Virus record (IMG/VR): IMGVR_UViG_2740892272_000004
Strand: one strand, 5' to 3'
DNA from: a virus
Taxonomy: Duplodnaviria; Heunggongvirae; Uroviricota; Caudoviricetes
DNA length: 43,535 bases
Both the position numbers and the translations under genes were made by a program. Positions within the stretch are counted from its first letter, which is position 1; the number at the start of each line of letters is the position of its first letter. Under the pieces are notes generated by a model. The model was given only the letters and a program-made list of their open reading frames with translations. It did no database searches and had not been told where the DNA came from. Shown here one piece after another: positions 22,575-35,493 of this stretch.

Positions 22575-23522
22575 TTACAGATAATCCGCGACAACCAGCT
22601 CCAGCTTGCCCTTCATCTCGTTAGAGACTGTGGCGTTACCGTCTGCGAACAGCTCGCGCTCCAGCAGCTGCACCGCCTGTTTTTCCAGCGAGGTGGGGAC
22701 AACAATATGGGTGGGTTTGATGCCGAGTTTGCGGCCACCGTCAGCCTTAAAGTCACGCATGGCTGACCAGCCGTGCCACAGCGCATCCAGCGTCAGCGGT
22801 GACTGCATCATGTAGGCCATCTGCCAGAAGCCGTAGCCCACATTGCGACGGGCGGAAGCACCGAACACAAACTCGTTATCAGTAAACGCACGGCCTTCAT
22901 CGACTTTTGTCTGGGCAACCAGTTCGGCTTTGCGGCGATCCTGATAAATCAGCGGTTTTACCGCGCGGGAGCAGTCAAGCAGATACCAGGCCGGGCCGCT
23001 GTAATCCGCCTGTGCACCGACAGAGCCGGTTTTTGCCACAAACATATTGCTGACCATCTGTGCATCACCGGAGCCATCCACTTTGGGGTAAACAGGGTGT
23101 TCGGTATCAAAGAAGTTCTGGCCGTCATAGCAGGCCGCATTCAGACCATCACGCAGTGCAGCAAAGACCAGTTCATCCGGTTGTGCCGCAGCGGCACGAC
23201 CCATTTCCTGGAATAACGGGGAGTAGATGCCGAGATTGTCGTCTTCAAAGTCATCGCGGCTAATGGCAACGGTGCCTTCAAAGGTTTTGTTCACGATGGC
23301 GTAGCCATAGGCTTTCATCTTCTCGATGACGCGGGAGCCGATCCACTCACGGAACTGCGGGAACTGCCCCAGCCAGCCGTAGGTGTTGGATTTCGAGGTG
23401 GACGGCACGGTCATCGCAATTTTCTGGTACTGCGACGGAGCCATGGACATCCCGGCCTGAAAATCAGAACGGTAGCCCGTCATCAGGGCGGTGATCATCG
23501 CCGGTGTAATCGGGGTAGGCAT
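22575..23522 (-). CDS. Major head (capsid) protein T-like
   Basis: 315 aa, downstream of the protease/scaffold gene; size matches Mu gpT. Confidence 0.75.
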   Translation of the reverse strand: MPTPITPAMITALMTGYRSDFQAGMSMAPSQYQKIAMTVPSTSKSNTYGWLGQFPQFREWIGSRVIEKMKAYGYAIVNKTFEGTVAISRDDFEDDNLGIYSPLFQEMGRAAAAQPDELVFAALRDGLNAACYDGQNFFDTEHPVYPKVDGSGDAQMVSNMFVAKTGSVGAQADYSGPAWYLLDCSRAVKPLIYQDRRKAELVAQTKVDEGRAFTDNEFVFGASARRNVGYGFWQMAYMMQSPLTLDALWHGWSAMRDFKADGGRKLGIKPTHIVVPTSLEKQAVQLLERELFADGNATVSNEMKGKLELVVADYL

Positions 23523-24655
23523 TATTGCATTTCCTCTTTCATTTTCAGGAACTCGGCTTCGGTTTTACCCAACAGACGTGCGGCGGCGATATCTTCAGCC
23601 GACAGCACAGCGGTGGCGGTCTTTTTATCCGGCACGGTTACGGTGTCGGTCTGAAGAGTGGTCAGAGCCGCAACCGGCTGGCGGGCGTCAAGCTGTGCAG
23701 AAAGTGCCGCGACGCCAATCTGTTGTCCGAGTCCTTCCATGTATCCGCGTTCGCTTTTGAAAATGCGTCCTTCGGACTCGGCCTTATCCAGCAACTGCTC
23801 CAGCGTGGTGCTGCCGTGTTGTGCCGACAGCGCGGCATATTCGGTACGCAGGGCGTTATACGTCTCAACGGGCACATATTTCGTCAGATCAATAGTGCCG
23901 CCAGTTGGTGTGCCTTTTGCGGTTTCCAGTTCTGCCGACAGGCTGGCAACCTGCGTTTTCAGGGTGTCGTGCGCATCCGCACGGGTTTTGATCCCGGTAA
24001 GGGCAGACAGCGCCGCCGTGCCCAGTTCCGGTGTAAATTCGTCACCGTCAGCCACGGTCAGACCGAGCGCCGTCAGCAACTGGCGTAATTGCTCATTCAT
24101 GGGGGATTGCTCCTGAGAAGGGGAAACGACATAGAGATCATCAGCACTGAGTGCCGCGACAGGGTTCATACCCGTAATACCCGGATCATTCGTCAGGGAA
24201 GCCATGCGCAACAGGTAGGGTTCCCCGGTGTCAGCGAAATAATGCATATATGCAGACAGATAGGCATATTCACGGTCATCAATATGTTTTTGTGCCTGTG
24301 GTGTCCATTCAGGTTTAATGAAAATCCCCTGACCCTCACGCCATTCGATGTTTTCCGGCTTAACCCATCCTGCAGCAATAGCCTTGAATCCGTTTTTCTG
24401 CGCATTCACGGAGTGATGGTCATAATCAATCAGTAACGGCTGATGCAGGGCGGAAAGCCCGGCTTTCATCCGGTTACAGGCGGATTCGTTAATCAGCCAG
24501 CCTTCAGTCGGTTTTTCCGGGCGACCGTCACGGGCCTTTACCCGACCGGCTGGCAGTAACTGACACCATCCGTCGCCGGATGCAGTCAGCGAAGCTGAAA
24601 GCACGGCTAAACCGGAGGGGCGATTTGCGTCTTTTGGGTGATTTTCTGTCTTCAT
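23522..24655 (-). CDS. Head protease/scaffold protein I-like
   Basis: 377 aa; position between the G-like and T-like genes. Confidence 0.6.
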   Translation of the reverse strand: MKTENHPKDANRPSGLAVLSASLTASGDGWCQLLPAGRVKARDGRPEKPTEGWLINESACNRMKAGLSALHQPLLIDYDHHSVNAQKNGFKAIAAGWVKPENIEWREGQGIFIKPEWTPQAQKHIDDREYAYLSAYMHYFADTGEPYLLRMASLTNDPGITGMNPVAALSADDLYVVSPSQEQSPMNEQLRQLLTALGLTVADGDEFTPELGTAALSALTGIKTRADAHDTLKTQVASLSAELETAKGTPTGGTIDLTKYVPVETYNALRTEYAALSAQHGSTTLEQLLDKAESEGRIFKSERGYMEGLGQQIGVAALSAQLDARQPVAALTTLQTDTVTVPDKKTATAVLSAEDIAAARLLGKTEAEFLKMKEEMQ

Positions 24656-24832: not shown

Positions 24833-25306
24833 TTACGGCGTTTCTGTGGCCTTTTTAAAGCGTTTTCTGATTTCGTCCATGATCTCCTGTTCTGCCACCT
24901 GATCAAAGCCCATATACGGACGTGCGCCAATGGCCGCCGGTCCCGGTGGCATACCAGGCAGGCCACCCCACTGATGAATGGCTGCATAAGGTTCATTTGA
25001 TCCAATCAGCGCCCAGGTATCGCCATAATCCGTGGTCAGGCGGCGGGCCAGATCGCCGTTCAGCGTCAGGATTTTGCCGGGCGTGTATCCCTTACGGGTA
25101 CGCCACTCACGGTAAGGATCTGACCAGTCATGCCAGCGTTCACCATCCGGCTCTTTTTCCTGCTCAAACGCCATTTCTGACGATGACAGAAGACTCGCCG
25201 CCACACTGCGGGCCAGGTCTTTTCCGCCGCCCACAAACTGAAGCCGGGCAAACACTCGCTGGAGACGCGTAACGTCAACAACGACAGCTGCATCAATGGA
25301 TGACAT
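24833..25306 (-). CDS. Virion morphogenesis protein G-like
   Basis: 157 aa; position downstream of the F-like gene. Confidence 0.5.
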   Translation of the reverse strand: MSSIDAAVVVDVTRLQRVFARLQFVGGGKDLARSVAASLLSSSEMAFEQEKEPDGERWHDWSDPYREWRTRKGYTPGKILTLNGDLARRLTTDYGDTWALIGSNEPYAAIHQWGGLPGMPPGPAAIGARPYMGFDQVAEQEIMDEIRKRFKKATETP

Positions 25307-25427
25307 ATTGCCTCCGCATAAAGGATGAATATAAAATAAACAGGCGGTCAGTGTACGCTTAACTGGTAAAGTCGGTGCCTGCCTCCGGGTGGATCATGTA
25401 TGCGGGTTCGACCCCCGCCACTGACCG

Positions 25428-26759
25428 TTAATCAATTTGTCCTTCCAGCACCTCAAGCATTCCGCCCCGGATATCCGATTTCAGCTTATCCATATTGATA
25501 ACCCGGTAAGCATTCACAATCACATCCAGTTTGTCGGGCTGACGTTTCAGACTGTACGGTGCATTAACGGCAATCTGCACACTGCCATCCTGATTTTCCA
25601 CGATATACATCAGATTGTTGTGCCGTTTGTCCCACAGTACCGCTTTTGGCCTTGCCAGCATTGCCGGTAAGCGCCCGAAGTCCTCCGGCGTCAGAGCGAT
25701 GCCGTCATTCTGATGTTTCACACTGTCCGCATGGAGCACATTTTTACCGCTCATCGCCAGCAGGCGGGCCGGTGGCGTTCCCGTCCGGCTTTCCACTGCC
25801 TGCGCAATGCTTTCAGTCATAAAGCCCAGCGTGCGGATATCGTTACCACCTCGCCGGGTCTGCATGATGTTTTTTGCCCAGATGCGGAACGCCAGCTGCC
25901 GCTCCGGGCTGTTGTTCATCTCCTGAACCACCATTTCCCGTAACGCCGGGCTTTTCACCTCGATCAGTTTGCGGATCAGCGCCTGGTCTGTGCCGAACGC
26001 TGCCGAGCCGGGGTTATATGACCAGCCCACATCCGGTGTCATGGTTCTGGCGCCATCTGAATATGTGGTCACCGGCATTTCTCTGACTTCTCCGGTCTGT
26101 TTATCCACGCCAGCCTCAACATTGCGGGTGGAGAGATGATCCTCACCGGATGAAACGGATAACCCCATTGCATCCAGACGGGCCTGAGACAATGGCCGCA
26201 CACGGCAGCGGCAGTTCCAGCCATTGGGCGGGTAGTGTGTTTTCCAGAACGGATCGTCATAGCGGAATACCAGACCGTTAAGGGCGGAATGCGACGGGCG
26301 GGTACGGCTGTCCATGACCGCCACATACTGCCAGAACGGATGCGTGTCCGTGTTGTTCATCATCTGCGTGTAACGCCCGGCATTGTAAGCCACACGGGTG
26401 TTCACGTTGTAAATCAGCGCCAGACGACGGGGACTGCCCTGCTGCACTTCTTCCGCGTTACCGTCGCTGTCCACCACAATCTGCTTTCCCCACCATCCCA
26501 GCTTTTGCAGGCGTGGCGTCAGTGTGCGGATAAATTCTTTCTGTGAAATCCCCTCATCAATGGCCCGCTGCACTTCGGCCTGTAATGTGGTTACCACATC
26601 CAGCCGTGCCGTTTTTGCTGCCGTGAATGAGCGGGCATGAACATCCGCGTCTGTTTCGAACCAGTTCCAGCTGATATGCGCCCCTTTGGCGCGGAAGTAT
26701 GCCACCGTCTCTTTTGAGGGAAGCGTGGCGGCATAACCTAAATCAATCCCCTGAGCCAT
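25428..26759 (-). CDS. Head morphogenesis protein (Mu F-like)
   Basis: 443 aa immediately downstream of the portal gene. Confidence 0.7.
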   Translation of the reverse strand: MAQGIDLGYAATLPSKETVAYFRAKGAHISWNWFETDADVHARSFTAAKTARLDVVTTLQAEVQRAIDEGISQKEFIRTLTPRLQKLGWWGKQIVVDSDGNAEEVQQGSPRRLALIYNVNTRVAYNAGRYTQMMNNTDTHPFWQYVAVMDSRTRPSHSALNGLVFRYDDPFWKTHYPPNGWNCRCRVRPLSQARLDAMGLSVSSGEDHLSTRNVEAGVDKQTGEVREMPVTTYSDGARTMTPDVGWSYNPGSAAFGTDQALIRKLIEVKSPALREMVVQEMNNSPERQLAFRIWAKNIMQTRRGGNDIRTLGFMTESIAQAVESRTGTPPARLLAMSGKNVLHADSVKHQNDGIALTPEDFGRLPAMLARPKAVLWDKRHNNLMYIVENQDGSVQIAVNAPYSLKRQPDKLDVIVNAYRVINMDKLKSDIRGGMLEVLEGQID

Positions 26760-31978: not shown

Positions 31979-32204
31979 TGCTCTGCTGTTCCTCGCTGTG
32001 CTGCATGTTCTGCTGTTTTTCATTCGTGGCCGCCTTGCTGATTTGTGAAATGAGTTGCAGGGTGCGTTGCTGGTTTGCCAGCACCAGACGGGCTTCGTCC
32101 CGTTCACGCACAAGCACATGATTATTGTCCTCAAGGCGCTGCGTCTTCTGGTGCATTCCCCATACCACGGCAGCCAGCACGCTCATCACCCCCAGCGCCG
32201 CCAT
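31854..32204 (-). CDS. Putative inner-membrane spanin, start uncertain
   Basis: Hydrophobic helix (ALGVMSVLAAVVWGM) followed by a charged coiled-coil-like region, immediately downstream of the endolysin. Confidence 0.4.
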   Translation of the reverse strand: MAALGVMSVLAAVVWGMHQKTQRLEDNNHVLVRERDEARLVLANQQRTLQLISQISKAATNEKQQNMQHSEEQQSIVRRSLATVPAAAVPVPDDVADRVRRAVCEIRAGEAGADPR

Positions 32205-32316
32205 ACAGCCTCCGGCAATCAGGGCCGGTAAGGGATTGTTCACCGCAGACACAGCACACCCCGCAGCAGCACAACGGCACACAGCAGCGCAATCATGAGC
32301 GGTCGCCAGAAGCGGT

Positions 32317-32817
32317 TCAGACTTTCGGCAAATCGTAACGACATAACCATTCATCCGCCGAACGGCGGGCCTCAAGACCGGGGAGTTTTACCCCCTTTGA
32401 ATAAATCCAGCGGATATACTGCTTACAGGACGCGGGCATCTGCCCGGCATTGATAAGGCGCAGGAGCGTGGAGTTGCGAAAGTTCGTTTCACCGGCCCAG
32501 AAAATCCAGGAGGCCAGCGCCACCGTCTGACCACGGGTAAGCGGCACCTGAACATGACGATCGATAGCCGCAAAGGCCCATTTCATGTCCTTTTCCAGCA
32601 GCTCCAGACACTCTTCATCAGTTTTTGTCATCCCCGGTTTCACATCCGGGCCGGTATGGCCGTAACAGATGGTGGGGGTGCCGGTGGGATCAATGTACGT
32701 GGTGTTTTCTTTCCCTTCCCAGTAGCCGGTGTAGTGCGTGGCAATGGTGAACGTCCCGGCTCCGGCCAGAACAAGGGCAATCAGCTTTTTACGCAGGGGT
32801 GCGGGGAGTTTTGGCAT
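32317..32817 (-). CDS. SAR endolysin (GH24 phage lysozyme with N-terminal signal-anchor-release domain)
   Basis: N-terminal Gly/Ala-rich weakly hydrophobic helix (LIALVLAGAGTFTIA), then the catalytic region YWEG...TYIDPTGTPTICYGHT typical of T4 E-type lysozymes. Confidence 0.85.
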   Translation of the reverse strand: MPKLPAPLRKKLIALVLAGAGTFTIATHYTGYWEGKENTTYIDPTGTPTICYGHTGPDVKPGMTKTDEECLELLEKDMKWAFAAIDRHVQVPLTRGQTVALASWIFWAGETNFRNSTLLRLINAGQMPASCKQYIRWIYSKGVKLPGLEARRSADEWLCRYDLPKV

Positions 32818-32888
32818 TGTTACGCTGTCTCATGGTGTTCTCTGAGTCAGCGTAACCGTGAGGAAAAGGGGGCAGGATTTGCGGAATA

Positions 32889-33311
32889 TCAGAAAAGCCG
32901 TGGCTGCGTGCGTTCCTGATGCAGGCGACGCTGGTTGCGGATAACGGAGTAAATCTGCGTCTCTGACATCTGGTAGTGGCGGCGCAGGGTTTCAATTTTT
33001 TCGCCCTGGCTCCAGCGGGAAAAAATTTCATTATTGCGCAGTTCGGTGAAAAGGGATTCACCGACCGGGAGATAATAACCACGCCCGCCCATGTACCCGG
33101 CCTGTGCGGCTGCAACCTTACGGGCAAGCATTCCCGCCTGAGCAGGTTCAATCCCCTGACGGTGCAGTTCAGCACTGATCACATCAACCAGGTCCCGCAG
33201 CGTGCCGGGCCAGTTCTTTTTCAGCTCATCATCAGGAATATCATCCAGACGGTCAATCAGCGCGTGCAGCTGTTCGCTGTCACCAAACATGCTCATCTGT
33301 GTTTCAGCCAT
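32889..33311 (-). CDS. Mor/C-family transcriptional activator
   Basis: 140 aa; C-terminal helix-turn-helix region (LRRHYQMSETQIYSVIRNQRR) and overall pattern resemble Mu Mor/C; lies between the gemA-like gene and the lysis genes. Confidence 0.7.
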   Translation of the reverse strand: MAETQMSMFGDSEQLHALIDRLDDIPDDELKKNWPGTLRDLVDVISAELHRQGIEPAQAGMLARKVAAAQAGYMGGRGYYLPVGESLFTELRNNEIFSRWSQGEKIETLRRHYQMSETQIYSVIRNQRRLHQERTQPRLF

Positions 33312-33381
33312 ACCCGCCTCCGGTCATCATTACACAGGGCAAGTTTAAAATAAAAATCCCGCGCTGTGGCGGGATTTGGGG

Positions 33382-33894
33382 TTAACGGGGGAATGATTTT
33401 TCATACAGCCTGCAAACACGCTCATAACTCATCACTGCACGTTCCGACATATCCAGGGCTGCCAGCATTTTGCGGCGGTGCCAGCGTTTGAGACGCTCCA
33501 GCACATCAGAGGCCAGCGCGGGTTGTTGCTCCAGCCACTGCCAGTTAGCCACACCTTCGCCGTCGTTCTGCGCGGCCGTCTGCGATTTCACCCAGCGGTT
33601 AAGGGCCGTTTCCCCGCCATCAGAGATAAATCCCTGCCGGTGCATCACTTTCCAGATGGCGCGAATTTTGGCGGTCACCGTACCCGGTTTTAAGGCCCGG
33701 TTAACCGGCTTCTGACGCACTTTAAAACCGCGTTTTTTGAAAACATCCAGCACGCGGGATAACTCACCGGGTGACATATCACGGCAACTGGATTTGCCGG
33801 TGGCTGCCAGCAGCGCGGATGTATAGGTATCATGGTCAAGCTGTAGATCGCGTTTTGCGACATGTATTAAGGTAATCAGGGAAGCGCGATTCAT
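33382..33894 (-). CDS. GemA/gp16-like regulatory protein
   Basis: 170 aa directly upstream of the Mor/C gene, the Mu gemA position. Confidence 0.45.
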   Translation of the reverse strand: MNRASLITLIHVAKRDLQLDHDTYTSALLAATGKSSCRDMSPGELSRVLDVFKKRGFKVRQKPVNRALKPGTVTAKIRAIWKVMHRQGFISDGGETALNRWVKSQTAAQNDGEGVANWQWLEQQPALASDVLERLKRWHRRKMLAALDMSERAVMSYERVCRLYEKSFPR

Positions 33895-33904
33895 TATCGT
33901 GGCT

Positions 33905-33936
33905 CCATAAAAAATGGGCGGTGTTACCGCACCGCC
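33905..33936 (-). terminator. Putative intrinsic terminator on the minus strand (GGCGGTG-loop-CACCGCC followed by a T-run)
   Basis: Minus-strand read: GGCGGTGCGGTAACACCGCC then CATTTTTTAT; lies about 9 kb from the prophage left end. Confidence 0.4.
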
Positions 33937-33964
33937 ATGTCAATTAACATAAAAGGAAAAATCT

Positions 33965-34204
33965 ATGTCAGATATAAAAAATGCACTTGATGTTGCCGCA
34001 TTCACAATGGCTGGAAATCTTATGGTAACCCTGTTCGATAAGGGGCTGATTTCCCGTGAGGAGGCAATACATATTATCAATCTCGCTCAAAAAAACTCTA
34101 CCCCGGAAAATGCAGAAGATATCCAGGATGGCTCATATATTAATACCGACTGGCATTTCGACAATCTCCGGGCCTGTATGGGGATTACCGCTGAAAAAGA
34201 TTAA
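33965..34204 (+). CDS. Hypothetical small protein (79 aa), opposite strand to the early operon, AT-rich
   Basis: ATG preceded by AAGGA; AT-rich composition distinct from neighbouring prophage genes. Confidence 0.4.
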   Translation: MSDIKNALDVAAFTMAGNLMVTLFDKGLISREEAIHIINLAQKNSTPENAEDIQDGSYINTDWHFDNLRACMGITAEKD

Positions 34205-34472
34205 AAATTTTTGCATAATGTTCAGATGTAAGAATTGCTGAACCATCAACACCGAGCCTACGGCGAACGTATTCCTCGCGGGCTATTTTATTATCCAGAG
34301 ATACAGCATCCTTAATCAGGTTAATCTCCCGCTCCATTATCAAAAGGGCTTCTCTGGCTGCAAGATTTTCTTTTATCGCATATTCGATAATGTCCCGCAT
34401 ACGTTCAAGCATGCCGATTTTAGCCAGTTCTTCGTCGATAGATTTAGGCGCAAATTTGATTTCTTTTTCCAT
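34185..34472 (-). CDS. Hypothetical helical charged protein (95 aa from ATG 34472), AT-rich
   Basis: ORF with ATG at 34472 (track start at 34487 is a GTG); convergent with, and overlapping by ~20 bp, the plus-strand ORF. Confidence 0.4.
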   Translation of the reverse strand: MEKEIKFAPKSIDEELAKIGMLERMRDIIEYAIKENLAAREALLIMEREINLIKDAVSLDNKIAREEYVRRRLGVDGSAILTSEHYAKIFNLFQR

Positions 34473-34473
34473 A

Positions 34474-34617
34474 TTATTCATCCTCACAATTTATACATGC
34501 AGTGTCGTCGCCCATATCGCAGTGGTTACATTTTATCTCACCACAATGTGGGCACTCTTTCAGATACTCCGGGTCCTCATTTCCACAGGTGGGACATTCA
34601 ACAATTTGCTCATCCAT
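34474..34617 (-). CDS. Small Cys-rich zinc-ribbon protein (47 aa; MDEQIVECPTCGNEDPEYLKECPHCGEIKCNHCDMGDDTACINCEDE)
   Basis: Not in the ORF track because under 60 aa. Four CxxC-type pairs; start overlaps the stop of the upstream ORF and the stop overlaps the next start, indicating translational coupling. Confidence 0.45.
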   Translation of the reverse strand: MDEQIVECPTCGNEDPEYLKECPHCGEIKCNHCDMGDDTACINCEDE

Positions 34618-34942
34618 TATGTATCCCCTGTAATTCCGGCAAGGCCGAAAGATGGCACCAGTGCGTCACCTGTCCGTCCTCATCTTCAAGGCAGGCTCCG
34701 GTTTCTTCATCAATAAAAAAGCCTTCATACCCCATATGGCCGATGCGCAGTTCCTGTTGGTCACCATACTGAACAATCAGCACGACAGCCTCCATATCAG
34801 GCGGAAATGCGTCATCCAGTGAATGCCAGGGATAACCGCGCAAATCCCCGAAATAAACGCCGGTCAGCGTTCCGCCACAGAGCGGCATTCCGGCGGCACA
34901 CACAAGAGGTTCATCTGATTCAACAAATAAGGTCGTTATCAT
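34610..34942 (-). CDS. Hypothetical protein (110 aa)
   Basis: ORF in the early-operon orientation, translationally coupled to neighbours. Confidence 0.4.
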   Translation of the reverse strand: MITTLFVESDEPLVCAAGMPLCGGTLTGVYFGDLRGYPWHSLDDAFPPDMEAVVLIVQYGDQQELRIGHMGYEGFFIDEETGACLEDEDGQVTHWCHLSALPELQGIHNG

Positions 34943-35490
34943 GGCGTTAACTCCCGTAATACAGCGTCCTCGGCAGTCCGGCGACGGTAATAAACTGCGT
35001 GAGCAGAATGTTCAGATATTCCAAACTTTTCGCCAATTTCCCGGAATGACAGACGGCGTGGGTAATCGGAATCACGCAGCTCACGTATAAGACGTACATC
35101 ATCATCAGATATGCGCGTGCCGGGGCGTAACTCTCCGCACTTTGTTAATCCAGCACCAATCATTCCTGCCCGACATCTGACAGAATCTTTATTACGTCCG
35201 AGATATTCTCCCATTTGCTGGCAGGTCATTGTTCTGGCATTTTTTCGAATAAACTTATCTTCATCAGGTGTAAATCTTGGGTGTTTATATTTCAGTAACT
35301 CCGGGTATGAACTGCGCAATACACCAGTCCGGTTATATACAGCCCAGACAGTTCTTTTTATTCTGGCAGCAATATCCTTAACCGGGGTGGATGAATAAAG
35401 CGCAATCAGCAGCGCATCTTCTTCAGGTGTCCACGGACGGACATGAGCGGGGGCGCGACCTTTTAGTCCCATGGGTTGTAATTTCATCAT
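34939..35490 (-). CDS. Hypothetical DNA-binding protein with three tandem helix-turn-helix-like repeats
   Basis: Three internally repeated segments (WTPEEDALLIALY..., FTPDEDKFIRKNA..., ISDDDVRLIRELR...) each resembling a small HTH unit. Confidence 0.45.
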   Translation of the reverse strand: MMKLQPMGLKGRAPAHVRPWTPEEDALLIALYSSTPVKDIAARIKRTVWAVYNRTGVLRSSYPELLKYKHPRFTPDEDKFIRKNARTMTCQQMGEYLGRNKDSVRCRAGMIGAGLTKCGELRPGTRISDDDVRLIRELRDSDYPRRLSFREIGEKFGISEHSAHAVYYRRRTAEDAVLRELTP

Positions 35491-35493
35491 GCA

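What the first reader, a model, noticed from the sequence alone, without database searches (positions are those of the whole stretch)
34939..35490. Early protein built from three tandem HTH-like repeats
The 183-aa protein contains three internally repeated units of about 40 aa, each beginning (W/F/I)(T/S)P(E/D)(E/D)D and followed by a helix-rich basic segment. The arrangement resembles Myb/SANT-like or sigma-region-4-like DNA-binding repeats and may be a host-takeover transcription factor or polymerase-binding protein.
Basis: inference. Interest (0 to 1): 0.35.

Follow-up and report, generated by a model that had tools for sequence, protein, structure and literature searches.

The report
Three-HTH early DNA-binding prophage protein
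This is an ordinary, already annotated gene in the early region of a Mu-like E. coli prophage; it encodes a small basic protein made of three helix-turn-helix DNA-binding modules and is distantly related to the DNA-binding protein D5 of phage T5.

Summary
The ORF is real: 34939..35490, minus strand, 183 aa. It equals RefSeq WP_000977059.1, already named "SANT/Myb-like DNA-binding domain-containing protein". AlphaFold2 (pLDDT 84.6) gives three consecutive helix-turn-helix (HTH) bundles with a 53-residue period. Units 1 and 2 are clearly homologous (hhalign 98%, E 2e-13). As a pair they align in register with c-Myb R2R3 (E 1e-6). Unit 3 is a four-helix HTH, closest to sigma-70 region 4/LuxR, and only marginally similar in sequence to units 1 and 2. 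Its motif is ISDDDV, not xxP(E/D)(E/D)D. The gene lies in the early operon of a Mu-like transposable prophage, between the Gam/Gp11-like genes and GemA/Mor, and is translationally coupled to its neighbours. It is under purifying selection (dN/dS about 0.25). It is present in all 233 E. coli records that carry this prophage lineage. It also sits in the early operon of P2-like prophages of Enterobacterales. The closest characterised relative is phage T5 protein D5 (same PHROG 323; collinear over all three units, 96% probability). D5 is a DNA-binding protein needed for T5 replication and late transcription. Most likely role: an accessory early duplex-DNA-binding regulator. No target or partner was found, and RNA polymerase binding remains untested. 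New member of a known kind; low to moderate interest.

The parts
34939..35490 (-). Complete ORF, 183 aa plus stop; equals WP_000977059.1 'SANT/Myb-like DNA-binding domain-containing protein'
   Evidence: dN/dS 0.25 against the other allele class.
35497..35502 (-). Shine-Dalgarno AGGGGG, 6 nt upstream of the ATG. It lies just upstream of the stop codon (35494-35496) of the upstream gene (35494..36009).
   Evidence: Read directly from the sequence.
35440..35490 (-). Residues 1-17: conserved but predicted-disordered basic N-terminal peptide, M-x-L-K-P-M-G-x-P-G-K-C-P-A-H-x-R. Inferred to be a DNA-groove arm or a partner-binding peptide.
   Evidence: pLDDT below 50 for residues 1-12. Conserved down to 37% overall identity, including in the P2-type versions.
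35314..35433 (-). HTH unit 1 (residues 20-59), Myb-like, starts WTPEED
35161..35274 (-). HTH unit 2 (residues 73-110), Myb-like, starts FTPDED
35116..35160 (-). Conserved linker (residues 111-125) containing K-C-G-(D/E)-x-x-P-x-T-R
   Evidence: K117, G119 and T125 are invariant in 22 sequences and conserved in the wider family.
34948..35115 (-). HTH unit 3 (residues 126-181), a four-helix HTH resembling sigma-70 region 4/LuxR. It starts ISDDDV and contains the invariant F-x-E-I-G-x-K-F helix.
34939..34942 (-). ATGA overlap: the stop of this gene overlaps the start of the downstream 110-aa gene (34610..34942), indicating translational coupling within the operon

Best explanation
The gene encodes an accessory early-operon DNA-binding protein of the phage T5 D5-like family (PHROG 323).

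By synteny, it is transcribed with the Mu-type early operon during lytic development. The protein is a string of three HTH modules: two Myb-like three-helix bundles, then one sigma-4/LuxR-like four-helix HTH. A conserved basic N-terminal arm precedes them and conserved linkers join them.

The inferred mechanism is that the three recognition helices and the basic arm bind along roughly two to three turns of duplex DNA. By occupying DNA, the protein would modulate transcription and/or replication-transposition of phage or host DNA, as T5 D5 is reported to do.

Shown here: the ORF, its selection regime, the three-HTH architecture, the Myb-like homology of units 1-2, the homology to T5 D5, the early-operon position in two phage lineages, and the basic charge. 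Inferred: DNA binding itself, the number of base pairs covered, and the regulatory outcome. The target is unknown.
For: - Architecture: the AlphaFold2 model shows three HTH bundles, and the model of unit 3 alone agrees.
- Units 1-2: they are homologous to each other. As a pair they align in register with c-Myb R2R3-DNA structures (E 1.2e-6) and with the archaeal CRISPR-repeat-binding tandem-HTH protein 2lvs (E 5e-4; it is also the Foldseek top hit).
- Pfam hits in family members: Myb in 17 of 22, Sigma70_r4 in 16 of 22, AsnC-type HTH in 16 of 22.
- Charge: pI 9.9, and all three units are basic.
- PHROG 323 'transcriptional regulator, D5-like': E 5e-53.
- T5 D5: the family profile aligns collinearly with D5 residues 71-232 across all three units (probability 96.4%, E 1.1e-9, 147 columns). 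D5 itself scores 1.2e-71 in PHROG 323. The T5 record annotates D5 as a DNA-binding protein required for replication and late transcription and involved in early shut-off. A 2026 preprint reports that D5 is toxic on its own in E. coli, and an AlphaFold3 model in it predicts that D5's HTH binds retron msDNA (PMC13405049).
- Context: the gene lies between Gam/Gp11-like genes and GemA/Mor in Mu-like prophages, and between cox and replication gene A in P2-like prophages.
- Retention and selection: it is present in 233 of 233 E. coli records with this prophage lineage, and dN/dS is 0.25.
- BFVD Foldseek finds many phage tandem-HTH proteins, including DNA-targeting modules of endonucleases.
Against: - No DNA target was found. 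The early region has no over-represented repeats.
- Among seven related prophages, no other phage segment diverges together with the two allele classes of this gene.
- The query itself is below Pfam's gathering scores (Myb 19.7 bits against a cut-off of 24.4).
- Whole-chain Foldseek against the PDB is not significant (best E 0.034).
- The D5 comparison used a single D5 sequence. D5 has about 70 extra N-terminal residues and lacks this family's conserved N-terminal peptide.
- D5's own molecular mechanism is poorly defined, so 'works like D5' predicts little.
Confidence: 0.55

Rival explanations
1. It is an RNA-polymerase-binding protein. Unit 3 would mimic sigma-70 region 4 and dock on the beta-flap or compete for the -35 element, redirecting host RNA polymerase. 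The Myb-like units would serve as anchors.
For: For unit 3 alone, the best structural neighbours are sigma region 4 structures, including complexes with phage or host sigma-4-binding proteins. Sigma70_r4 Pfam hits occur in 16 of 22 family members. The matching unit of T5 D5 passes Pfam's cut-off for Sigma70_r4_2 (28.6 against 25.7).
Against: The Foldseek matches are not significant (E about 0.3, TM about 0.5). Xre-type and Lrp-type HTHs match the sequence equally well, so the resemblance is a generic HTH one. In unit 3 the HTH is helices 2-3 followed by a fourth helix (LuxR-like order), not the terminal pair as in sigma region 4 (the comparison with sigma-4 topology is from general knowledge). 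Nothing links the protein to RNA polymerase.
Confidence: 0.12
2. It is a non-specific or structure-specific DNA-coating protein. Its role would be protective or anti-defence (shielding replicating or transposing phage DNA, or acting as a decoy), not gene regulation.
For: No specific target or covarying site was found. From general knowledge, T5 D5 is an abundant protein that binds duplex DNA cooperatively; a preprint reports that it is sensed by a retron. The gene sits among accessory early genes next to the nuclease inhibitor Gam. It forms a divergent allele cassette: 72-75% aa identity against 91-98% for the flanking genes.
Against: dN/dS of 0.25 together with raised dS points to recombinational exchange of old alleles, not positive selection. 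The recognition helices vary between subfamilies while the scaffolds stay conserved. That pattern is more typical of sequence-specific binders.
Confidence: 0.2
3. It is a free-standing remnant of the DNA-targeting module of a homing endonuclease or methyltransferase, with no function of its own.
For: The two-repeat module is found in or next to ORFs annotated as HNH endonuclease or DNA methylase in cluster-J mycobacteriophages (35% identity over residues 12-118). Structural neighbours in BFVD include endonucleases. PHROG 1891, 'HNH endonuclease', gives a weak hit.
Against: The full three-unit architecture, the N-terminal peptide and the linkers are conserved down to 37% identity, at fixed positions in two unrelated prophage types. 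Selection is purifying. The gene is present in every copy of the prophage lineage. No nuclease remnant lies adjacent.
Confidence: 0.05

Closest known systems
Bacteriophage T5 protein D5 (T5.118, YP_006946.1; PHROG 323 'transcriptional regulator, D5-like')
   Same: Both belong to PHROG 323. They are collinear across all three HTH units, with WTPE-type starts on units 1 and 2 and a sigma-4-like last unit (probability 96.4%, E 1.1e-9). Both are early-expressed small phage proteins with no enzymatic domain.
   Different: D5 is 255 aa. It has about 70 extra N-terminal residues, possibly a fourth HTH (weak HTH_33/Tc3 hits), and a C-terminal tail. It lacks this family's conserved N-terminal peptide M-x-L-K-P-M-G-x-P-G-K-C-P-A-H. 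D5 is annotated as required for replication and late transcription in a virulent phage. This gene is an accessory early gene of temperate Mu-like and P2-like prophages. Identity over the aligned region is only about 29%.
Eukaryotic Myb R2R3 DNA-binding domain (c-Myb/B-Myb; PDB 1h88, 1a5j, 1mse)
   Same: Two consecutive three-helix units begin W/F-T-x-E-E-D, with an R-T-x-x-A-V-type third helix. The family profile aligns in register over both repeats (E 1.2e-6).
   Different: Only the first of Myb's three regularly spaced tryptophans is kept, and in unit 2 it is replaced by Phe. The query alone is below Pfam's cut-off. A third, non-Myb HTH is attached. The protein is bacterial or phage, not eukaryotic.
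Cbp2, archaeal CRISPR-repeat DNA-binding protein (PDB 2lvs)
   Same: It is a small basic protein made only of tandem HTH units joined by short linkers. It is the top Foldseek hit (probability 0.99, E 0.034) and a profile hit at E 5e-4.
   Different: Cbp2 has two units, not three. It is archaeal and chromosomal, and its function is bound to CRISPR repeats. The similarity is weak, and no link to CRISPR was seen here.
AsnC/Lrp family regulators (the name most database entries give to relatives)
   Same: Unit 3 gives sub-threshold to moderate hits to the AsnC-type HTH, PF13404 (18.8 bits in the query; 16 of 22 members).
   Different: There is no C-terminal RAM/AsnC_trans_reg ligand-binding domain, and two Myb-like units sit in front instead. 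The 'AsnC family protein' name is a mis-annotation.

Membership tests
PHROG 323 / T5 D5-like phage DNA-binding proteins | Significant match to the family profile over most of the protein | tested here: met
   E 5.3e-53, residues 2-182 against profile positions 80-256 of 319. T5 D5 itself scores 1.2e-71.
PHROG 323 / T5 D5-like phage DNA-binding proteins | Direct collinear homology to T5 D5 across the HTH array | tested here: met
   hhalign of A1 against D5: probability 96.4%, E 1.1e-9, 147 columns, D5 residues 71-232.
PHROG 323 / T5 D5-like phage DNA-binding proteins | Duplex-DNA binding, and a requirement for replication, late transcription or early shut-off | not testable with these tools
   These are properties of D5 taken from the T5 record note.
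Myb/SANT-like DNA-binding domain (Pfam PF00249/PF13921) | Score above Pfam's gathering cut-off | tested here: inconclusive
   The query scores 19.7 bits against a cut-off of 24.4 (PF00249) and 16.5 against 22.9 (PF13921). However, 17 of 22 homologues match PF00249 with a best E of 6.3e-9.
Myb/SANT-like DNA-binding domain (Pfam PF00249/PF13921) | Three-helix bundle in which the third helix is the recognition helix; tandem units in register with R2R3 | tested here: met
   AlphaFold2 helices 22-32/37-43/48-59 and 75-84/90-97/101-110. The profile matches c-Myb R2R3 in register at E 1.2e-6.
Myb/SANT-like DNA-binding domain (Pfam PF00249/PF13921) | Three regularly spaced tryptophans forming the hydrophobic core | tested here: not met
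   Only W20 (unit 1) is kept, and unit 2 has F73. The second and third positions hold aliphatic residues (V37/I40, L58). This is a Myb-like variant, not a canonical Myb repeat.
Sigma-70 region 4 | Pfam PF04545/PF08281 score above the cut-off, and structural match to region 4 | tested here: inconclusive
   The query scores 12.2 bits against a cut-off of 24.1. 16 of 22 homologues hit it, with a best E of 9.5e-8. For unit 3 the Foldseek top hits are sigma region 4, but at E 0.28 and TM about 0.5.
AsnC/Lrp family transcription regulators | N-terminal HTH plus a C-terminal RAM (AsnC_trans_reg) effector-binding domain | tested here: not met
   No RAM-domain hit in the query or in any of the 22 members. 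Only the 42-residue AsnC-type HTH model matches unit 3.

The most novel reading that the evidence does not exclude
The protein could be an early phage DNA-binder that host immune sensors recognise by fold, as a 2026 preprint reports for its relative T5 D5 and a type IX retron. In that case the two deeply diverged alleles kept in otherwise near-identical Mu-like prophages would be escape or counter-escape variants. The conserved disordered N-terminal peptide would then be the real effector that contacts a host factor. This would make an abundant, easily manipulated enterobacterial prophage gene a model for how temperate phages trade off an early DNA-binding function against detection.
Probability: 0.08. 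Interest if true: 0.55.

Novelty: new member of a known kind. Interest (0 to 1): 0.25.

Why it matters
The finding is of limited importance. It has three small uses.

1. It corrects the widespread label 'AsnC family protein' for this family, which is found in prophages of Enterobacterales.

2. It links an uncharacterised accessory early gene of Mu-like and P2-like prophages to the T5 D5 family. That gives D5-type proteins a genetically tractable temperate-phage counterpart.

3. It flags a conserved disordered N-terminal peptide and a two-allele polymorphism as handles for experiments.

It does not open a new kind of system.

Tried and rejected
- Search for a DNA target: the repeat and inverted-repeat scan and the promoter/terminator scan of the early region (32,000-43,535) gave only chance-level matches.
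- Covariation test: I fetched seven related E. coli prophages, three with the window-type allele and four with the other allele, and computed identity in 200-bp bins across 14-43 kb. Only bins 35,000-35,400 (this gene) follow the allele split. No partner gene or cis-site candidate emerged. With n = 7 this is weak negative evidence.
- Positive selection as the cause of the allele divergence: rejected. dS is raised too (0.60-0.65 against 0.03-0.27 in the flanking genes) and dN/dS is 0.25.
- GcrA-like DNA-binding domain, an idea from memory: no family member hit Pfam GcrA at E up to 0.01. Only an unrelated multi-repeat metagenomic protein did.
- Both genome-contig scans were uninformative.
- Literature: nothing on this protein or accession. 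The Avs5/JADA paper and the DRT4/ORF55 paper turned out to be unrelated.
- Whole-chain Foldseek against the PDB is dominated by variation in inter-domain orientation and is not significant.

Full report
**The object.** The window carries a Mu-like transposable prophage read on the minus strand. The order is repressor (42092..42637, + strand), a small HTH gene, Mu transposase A (39586..41673), the MuB-like AAA ATPase (38571..39512), small ORFs, Gam (36688..37218), a Gp11-like gene (36009..36542; Pfam Gp11_C, 5.7e-41), a 171-aa ORF, the finding's ORF (34939..35490), 110-, 47- and 100-aa ORFs, gp16/GemA (33382..33894), Mor (32889..33311), and then the lysis and morphogenesis genes.

An identical stretch exists in E. 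coli strain 600029. There the ORF is WP_000977059.1, annotated by PGAP as 'SANT/Myb-like DNA-binding domain-containing protein', and the prophage interrupts sgrR. The ORF has an AGGGGG ribosome-binding site 6 nt before its ATG. Its stop overlaps the next start as ATGA, so it is an integral, translationally coupled member of the early operon.

**Checking the repeat.** The protein reads WTPEED at residues 20-25, FTPDED at 73-78 and ISDDDV at 126-131, exactly 53 residues apart.

On the single sequence, with 2000 shuffles, R1/R2 similarity is modest (z 3.4, p about 0.009), R2/R3 is marginal (p about 0.025) and R1/R3 is absent. With family profiles cut from a 22-sequence alignment (A1), R1 against R2 is unambiguous (hhalign 98%, E 1.9e-13). 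R3 against R2 is weak but in register (20%, E 1e-3), and R3 against R1 is weaker still (9%).

AlphaFold2 on A1 gives mean pLDDT 84.6. It shows three consecutive three-helix bundles (22-59, 75-110, 129-169), a fourth helix (173-181) after the last bundle, and a disordered N-terminus. Unit 3 modelled alone gives the same four helices. There is no tandem repeat at DNA level.

**What the units are.**
- The query alone is below Pfam's cut-offs: Myb 19.7 against 24.4 bits, AsnC-type HTH 18.8 against 27, Sigma70_r4 12.2 against 24.1.
- Across the 22 homologues, Myb_DNA-binding is hit by 17 (best 6e-9), Sigma70_r4 by 16 and HTH_AsnC-type by 16.
- The A1 profile matches the c-Myb and B-Myb R2R3 structures in register over both units (E 1.2e-6 to 3e-4). 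It also matches the tandem-HTH CRISPR-repeat-binding protein 2lvs (E 5e-4). 2lvs is also the top whole-chain Foldseek hit, followed by other multi-HTH DNA binders: SNAPc Myb repeats, tandem homeodomains, Tc3, Pax and Trichomonas Myb2. None of these is significant, because the inter-domain geometry differs.
- Unit 3 by sequence resembles Xre-, Lrp- and sigma-type HTHs about equally. By structure its nearest neighbours are sigma-70 region 4 and LuxR/DosR-type domains, at E about 0.3 and TM about 0.5.
- Only the first Myb tryptophan is retained. This is therefore a Myb-like variant, not a canonical Myb repeat.
- There is no RAM domain, so the common database label 'AsnC family protein' is wrong.
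- The protein is basic overall and in each unit (pI 9.9). That fits a DNA-binding Myb type, not an acidic SANT type (the last point is general knowledge).

**Family and distribution.** Close full-length relatives are prophage proteins of Escherichia, Salmonella, Klebsiella/Raoultella, Citrobacter, Hafnia and Trabulsiella.

The exhaustive profile search found 12,863 cluster representatives at E up to 1e-3. About twenty of the top 150 share the full three-unit architecture. Most of the rest are long proteins made of many tandem copies of the WTPEED-type unit.

Within the full-length family the most conserved features are:
- the scaffolds of the three units;
- the linker K-C-G-D-x-x-P-x-T-R-x-x-D-x-D-V;
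- the helix F-x-E-I-G-x-K-F;
- unexpectedly, the predicted-disordered N-terminal peptide M-x-L-K-P-M-G-x-P-G-K-C-P-A-H-x-R-x-W.

The third (recognition) helices vary between subfamilies.

**Genomic context elsewhere.** In viral contigs the gene occurs in two settings.
- In Mu-like prophages of E. coli and Salmonella it always lies between the Gp11-like/171-aa genes and the 110-aa gene.
- In P2-like prophages, including Citrobacter phage Shae_phiSM (37% identity, annotated 'DNA binding protein'), it lies in the early lytic operon between cox and replication gene A.

None of the Mu-type neighbours travels with it into the P2-type loci, so it acts as an independent module. tblastn against 50,697 phage records at E up to 1 found no homologue in Mu itself. 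Two-unit relatives occur in phiEco32-like phages ('transcriptional regulator, D5-like') and jumbo phage Goslar. They also lie in or beside HNH-endonuclease or methylase ORFs of cluster-J mycobacteriophages. BFVD Foldseek likewise returns many phage tandem-HTH proteins.

**Selection and alleles.** All 233 E. coli complete-genome records that match the surrounding 5 kb also carry the gene at full length. The alleles are bimodal: 29 records are at 90% nucleotide identity or more, and 202 are at 60-80%. The flanking genes are typically 91-98% identical.

Against two prophages of the other allele class, dN is 0.15-0.17, dS is 0.60-0.65 and dN/dS is 0.25-0.27. The neighbouring genes have dS of 0.03-0.27. 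This is an old allele pair exchanged by recombination and held under purifying selection, not a case of positive selection. The divergence peaks in codons of about 97-163, which cover the unit 2 recognition helix through the unit 3 HTH.

In a seven-prophage identity map, no other segment between 14 and 43 kb follows the allele split. No covarying cis-site or partner gene was therefore detected. Seven genomes make this a weak negative.

**Closest characterised relative.** PHROG 323 ('transcriptional regulator, D5-like') matches the protein at 5e-53. I fetched the T5 genome. Its D5 protein (255 aa) scores 1.2e-71 in the same PHROG and aligns with the A1 profile collinearly across all three units: D5 71-232, probability 96.4%, E 1.1e-9. 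In D5 the units begin SPWTPEQE and RSFTPDEE, and the third contains NMTVAEIAEKTGKSERGV.

The T5 record describes D5 as a DNA-binding protein required for DNA replication and late transcription and involved in shut-off of earlier expression. A 2026 preprint reports that D5 is toxic when expressed alone. It also reports that D5 triggers a type IX retron, and an AlphaFold3 model in it predicts that D5's HTH binds the msDNA (PMC13405049).

D5 has an extra N-terminal region of about 70 residues and lacks the conserved N-terminal peptide of the prophage family.

**Mechanism.** The best-supported reading is a D5-like early duplex-DNA-binding protein. Its three recognition helices and basic N-terminal arm would engage two to three turns of DNA, modulating transcription and/or replication-transposition.
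- Shown: architecture, homology, context, charge and selection.
- Inferred: DNA binding itself and its consequences.

The rivals are a sigma-4-mimicking RNA polymerase binder, a non-specific DNA-coating or anti-defence protein, and a relic of an endonuclease targeting module. Each has some support, but less. The last is contradicted by the conservation pattern.

**Novelty and verdict.** The gene is already annotated as a Myb-like DNA-binding protein and already belongs to a named PHROG. The new points here are:
- the explicit three-unit dissection;
- the collinear link to T5 D5;
- the dual Mu-like and P2-like early-operon distribution;
- the conserved disordered N-terminal peptide;
- the two-allele polymorphism;
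- the correction of the 'AsnC family' label.

This is a new member of a known kind, of low to moderate interest.

Noticed in passing
window 1-43535 (prophage ends near 43,300 and the left part of the window); L001, L054-L060: The window is a Mu-like transposable prophage. In strain 600029 it interrupts sgrR. Related copies interrupt different genes in other strains (a hydratase gene, a fimbrial usher, tssM, a gene next to frvR, a DUF333 gene, a lateral-flagellar motA). This is consistent with random transposition.
   Followed up: partly
window 34939-35490 compared with L022, L028, L034 and L057-L060: The gene is a divergent allele cassette: 72-75% aa identity against 91-98% in the flanking genes. 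It is bimodal across 233 E. coli records, with raised dS and dN/dS of 0.25. No other phage segment covaried with the allele class among seven prophages.
   Followed up: yes
window 41600-43400: The repressor/operator (immunity) end could not be aligned by blastn with five of seven related prophages and was only about 73-75% identical in the other two. This held even for prophages sharing the same allele of the finding's gene. The window therefore carries a distinct immunity type.
   Followed up: no
window about 25306-25428 (between 24833..25306 and 25428..26759); L054 12609-12693 and the equivalent positions in L055-L057, L059 and L060: PGAP annotates a 'tRNA-OTHER' on the + strand in this intergenic gap in six related prophages. 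ARAGORN and Rfam (gathering threshold) find nothing anywhere in the window.
   Followed up: partly
P0029 (623 aa), P0031 (797 aa), P0039, P0081 (metagenomic proteins): These are long proteins built almost entirely of about 5-16 tandem copies of the same WTPEED...LGRT..AV..RA..LGL HTH unit. Their origin and function are unknown. One of them also hits Pfam GcrA.
   Followed up: partly
window 33965-34204 (+): A 79-aa ORF (WP_001280088.1, PHROG 32893) lies on the opposite strand inside the early operon. In other strains the same slot holds a counter-oriented DUF2513 gene or is absent. This is a variable moron-like slot.
   Followed up: no
window 34474-34617 (-): A 47-aa protein with four CxxC pairs (CPTCG, CPHCG, CNHC, CINC) is a probable double zinc ribbon. 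It gives a weak Pfam Zn_ribbon_LapB hit and belongs to PHROG 5584. Its function is unknown.
   Followed up: no
window 24100-24500 (inside 23522..24655): A segment of about 200-400 bp inside the gene annotated 'phage protease' in relatives has no blastn alignment, or only about 76-87% identity, to all seven related prophages. The flanking sequence is 93-98% identical. This is a local hypervariable patch.
   Followed up: no
database annotation of P0002, P0004, P0006-P0012, P0033, P0036 and the P0040 cluster: Most relatives are named 'AsnC family protein' although they lack the RAM domain. The name comes from a short HTH-only Pfam model that matches unit 3.
   Followed up: yes
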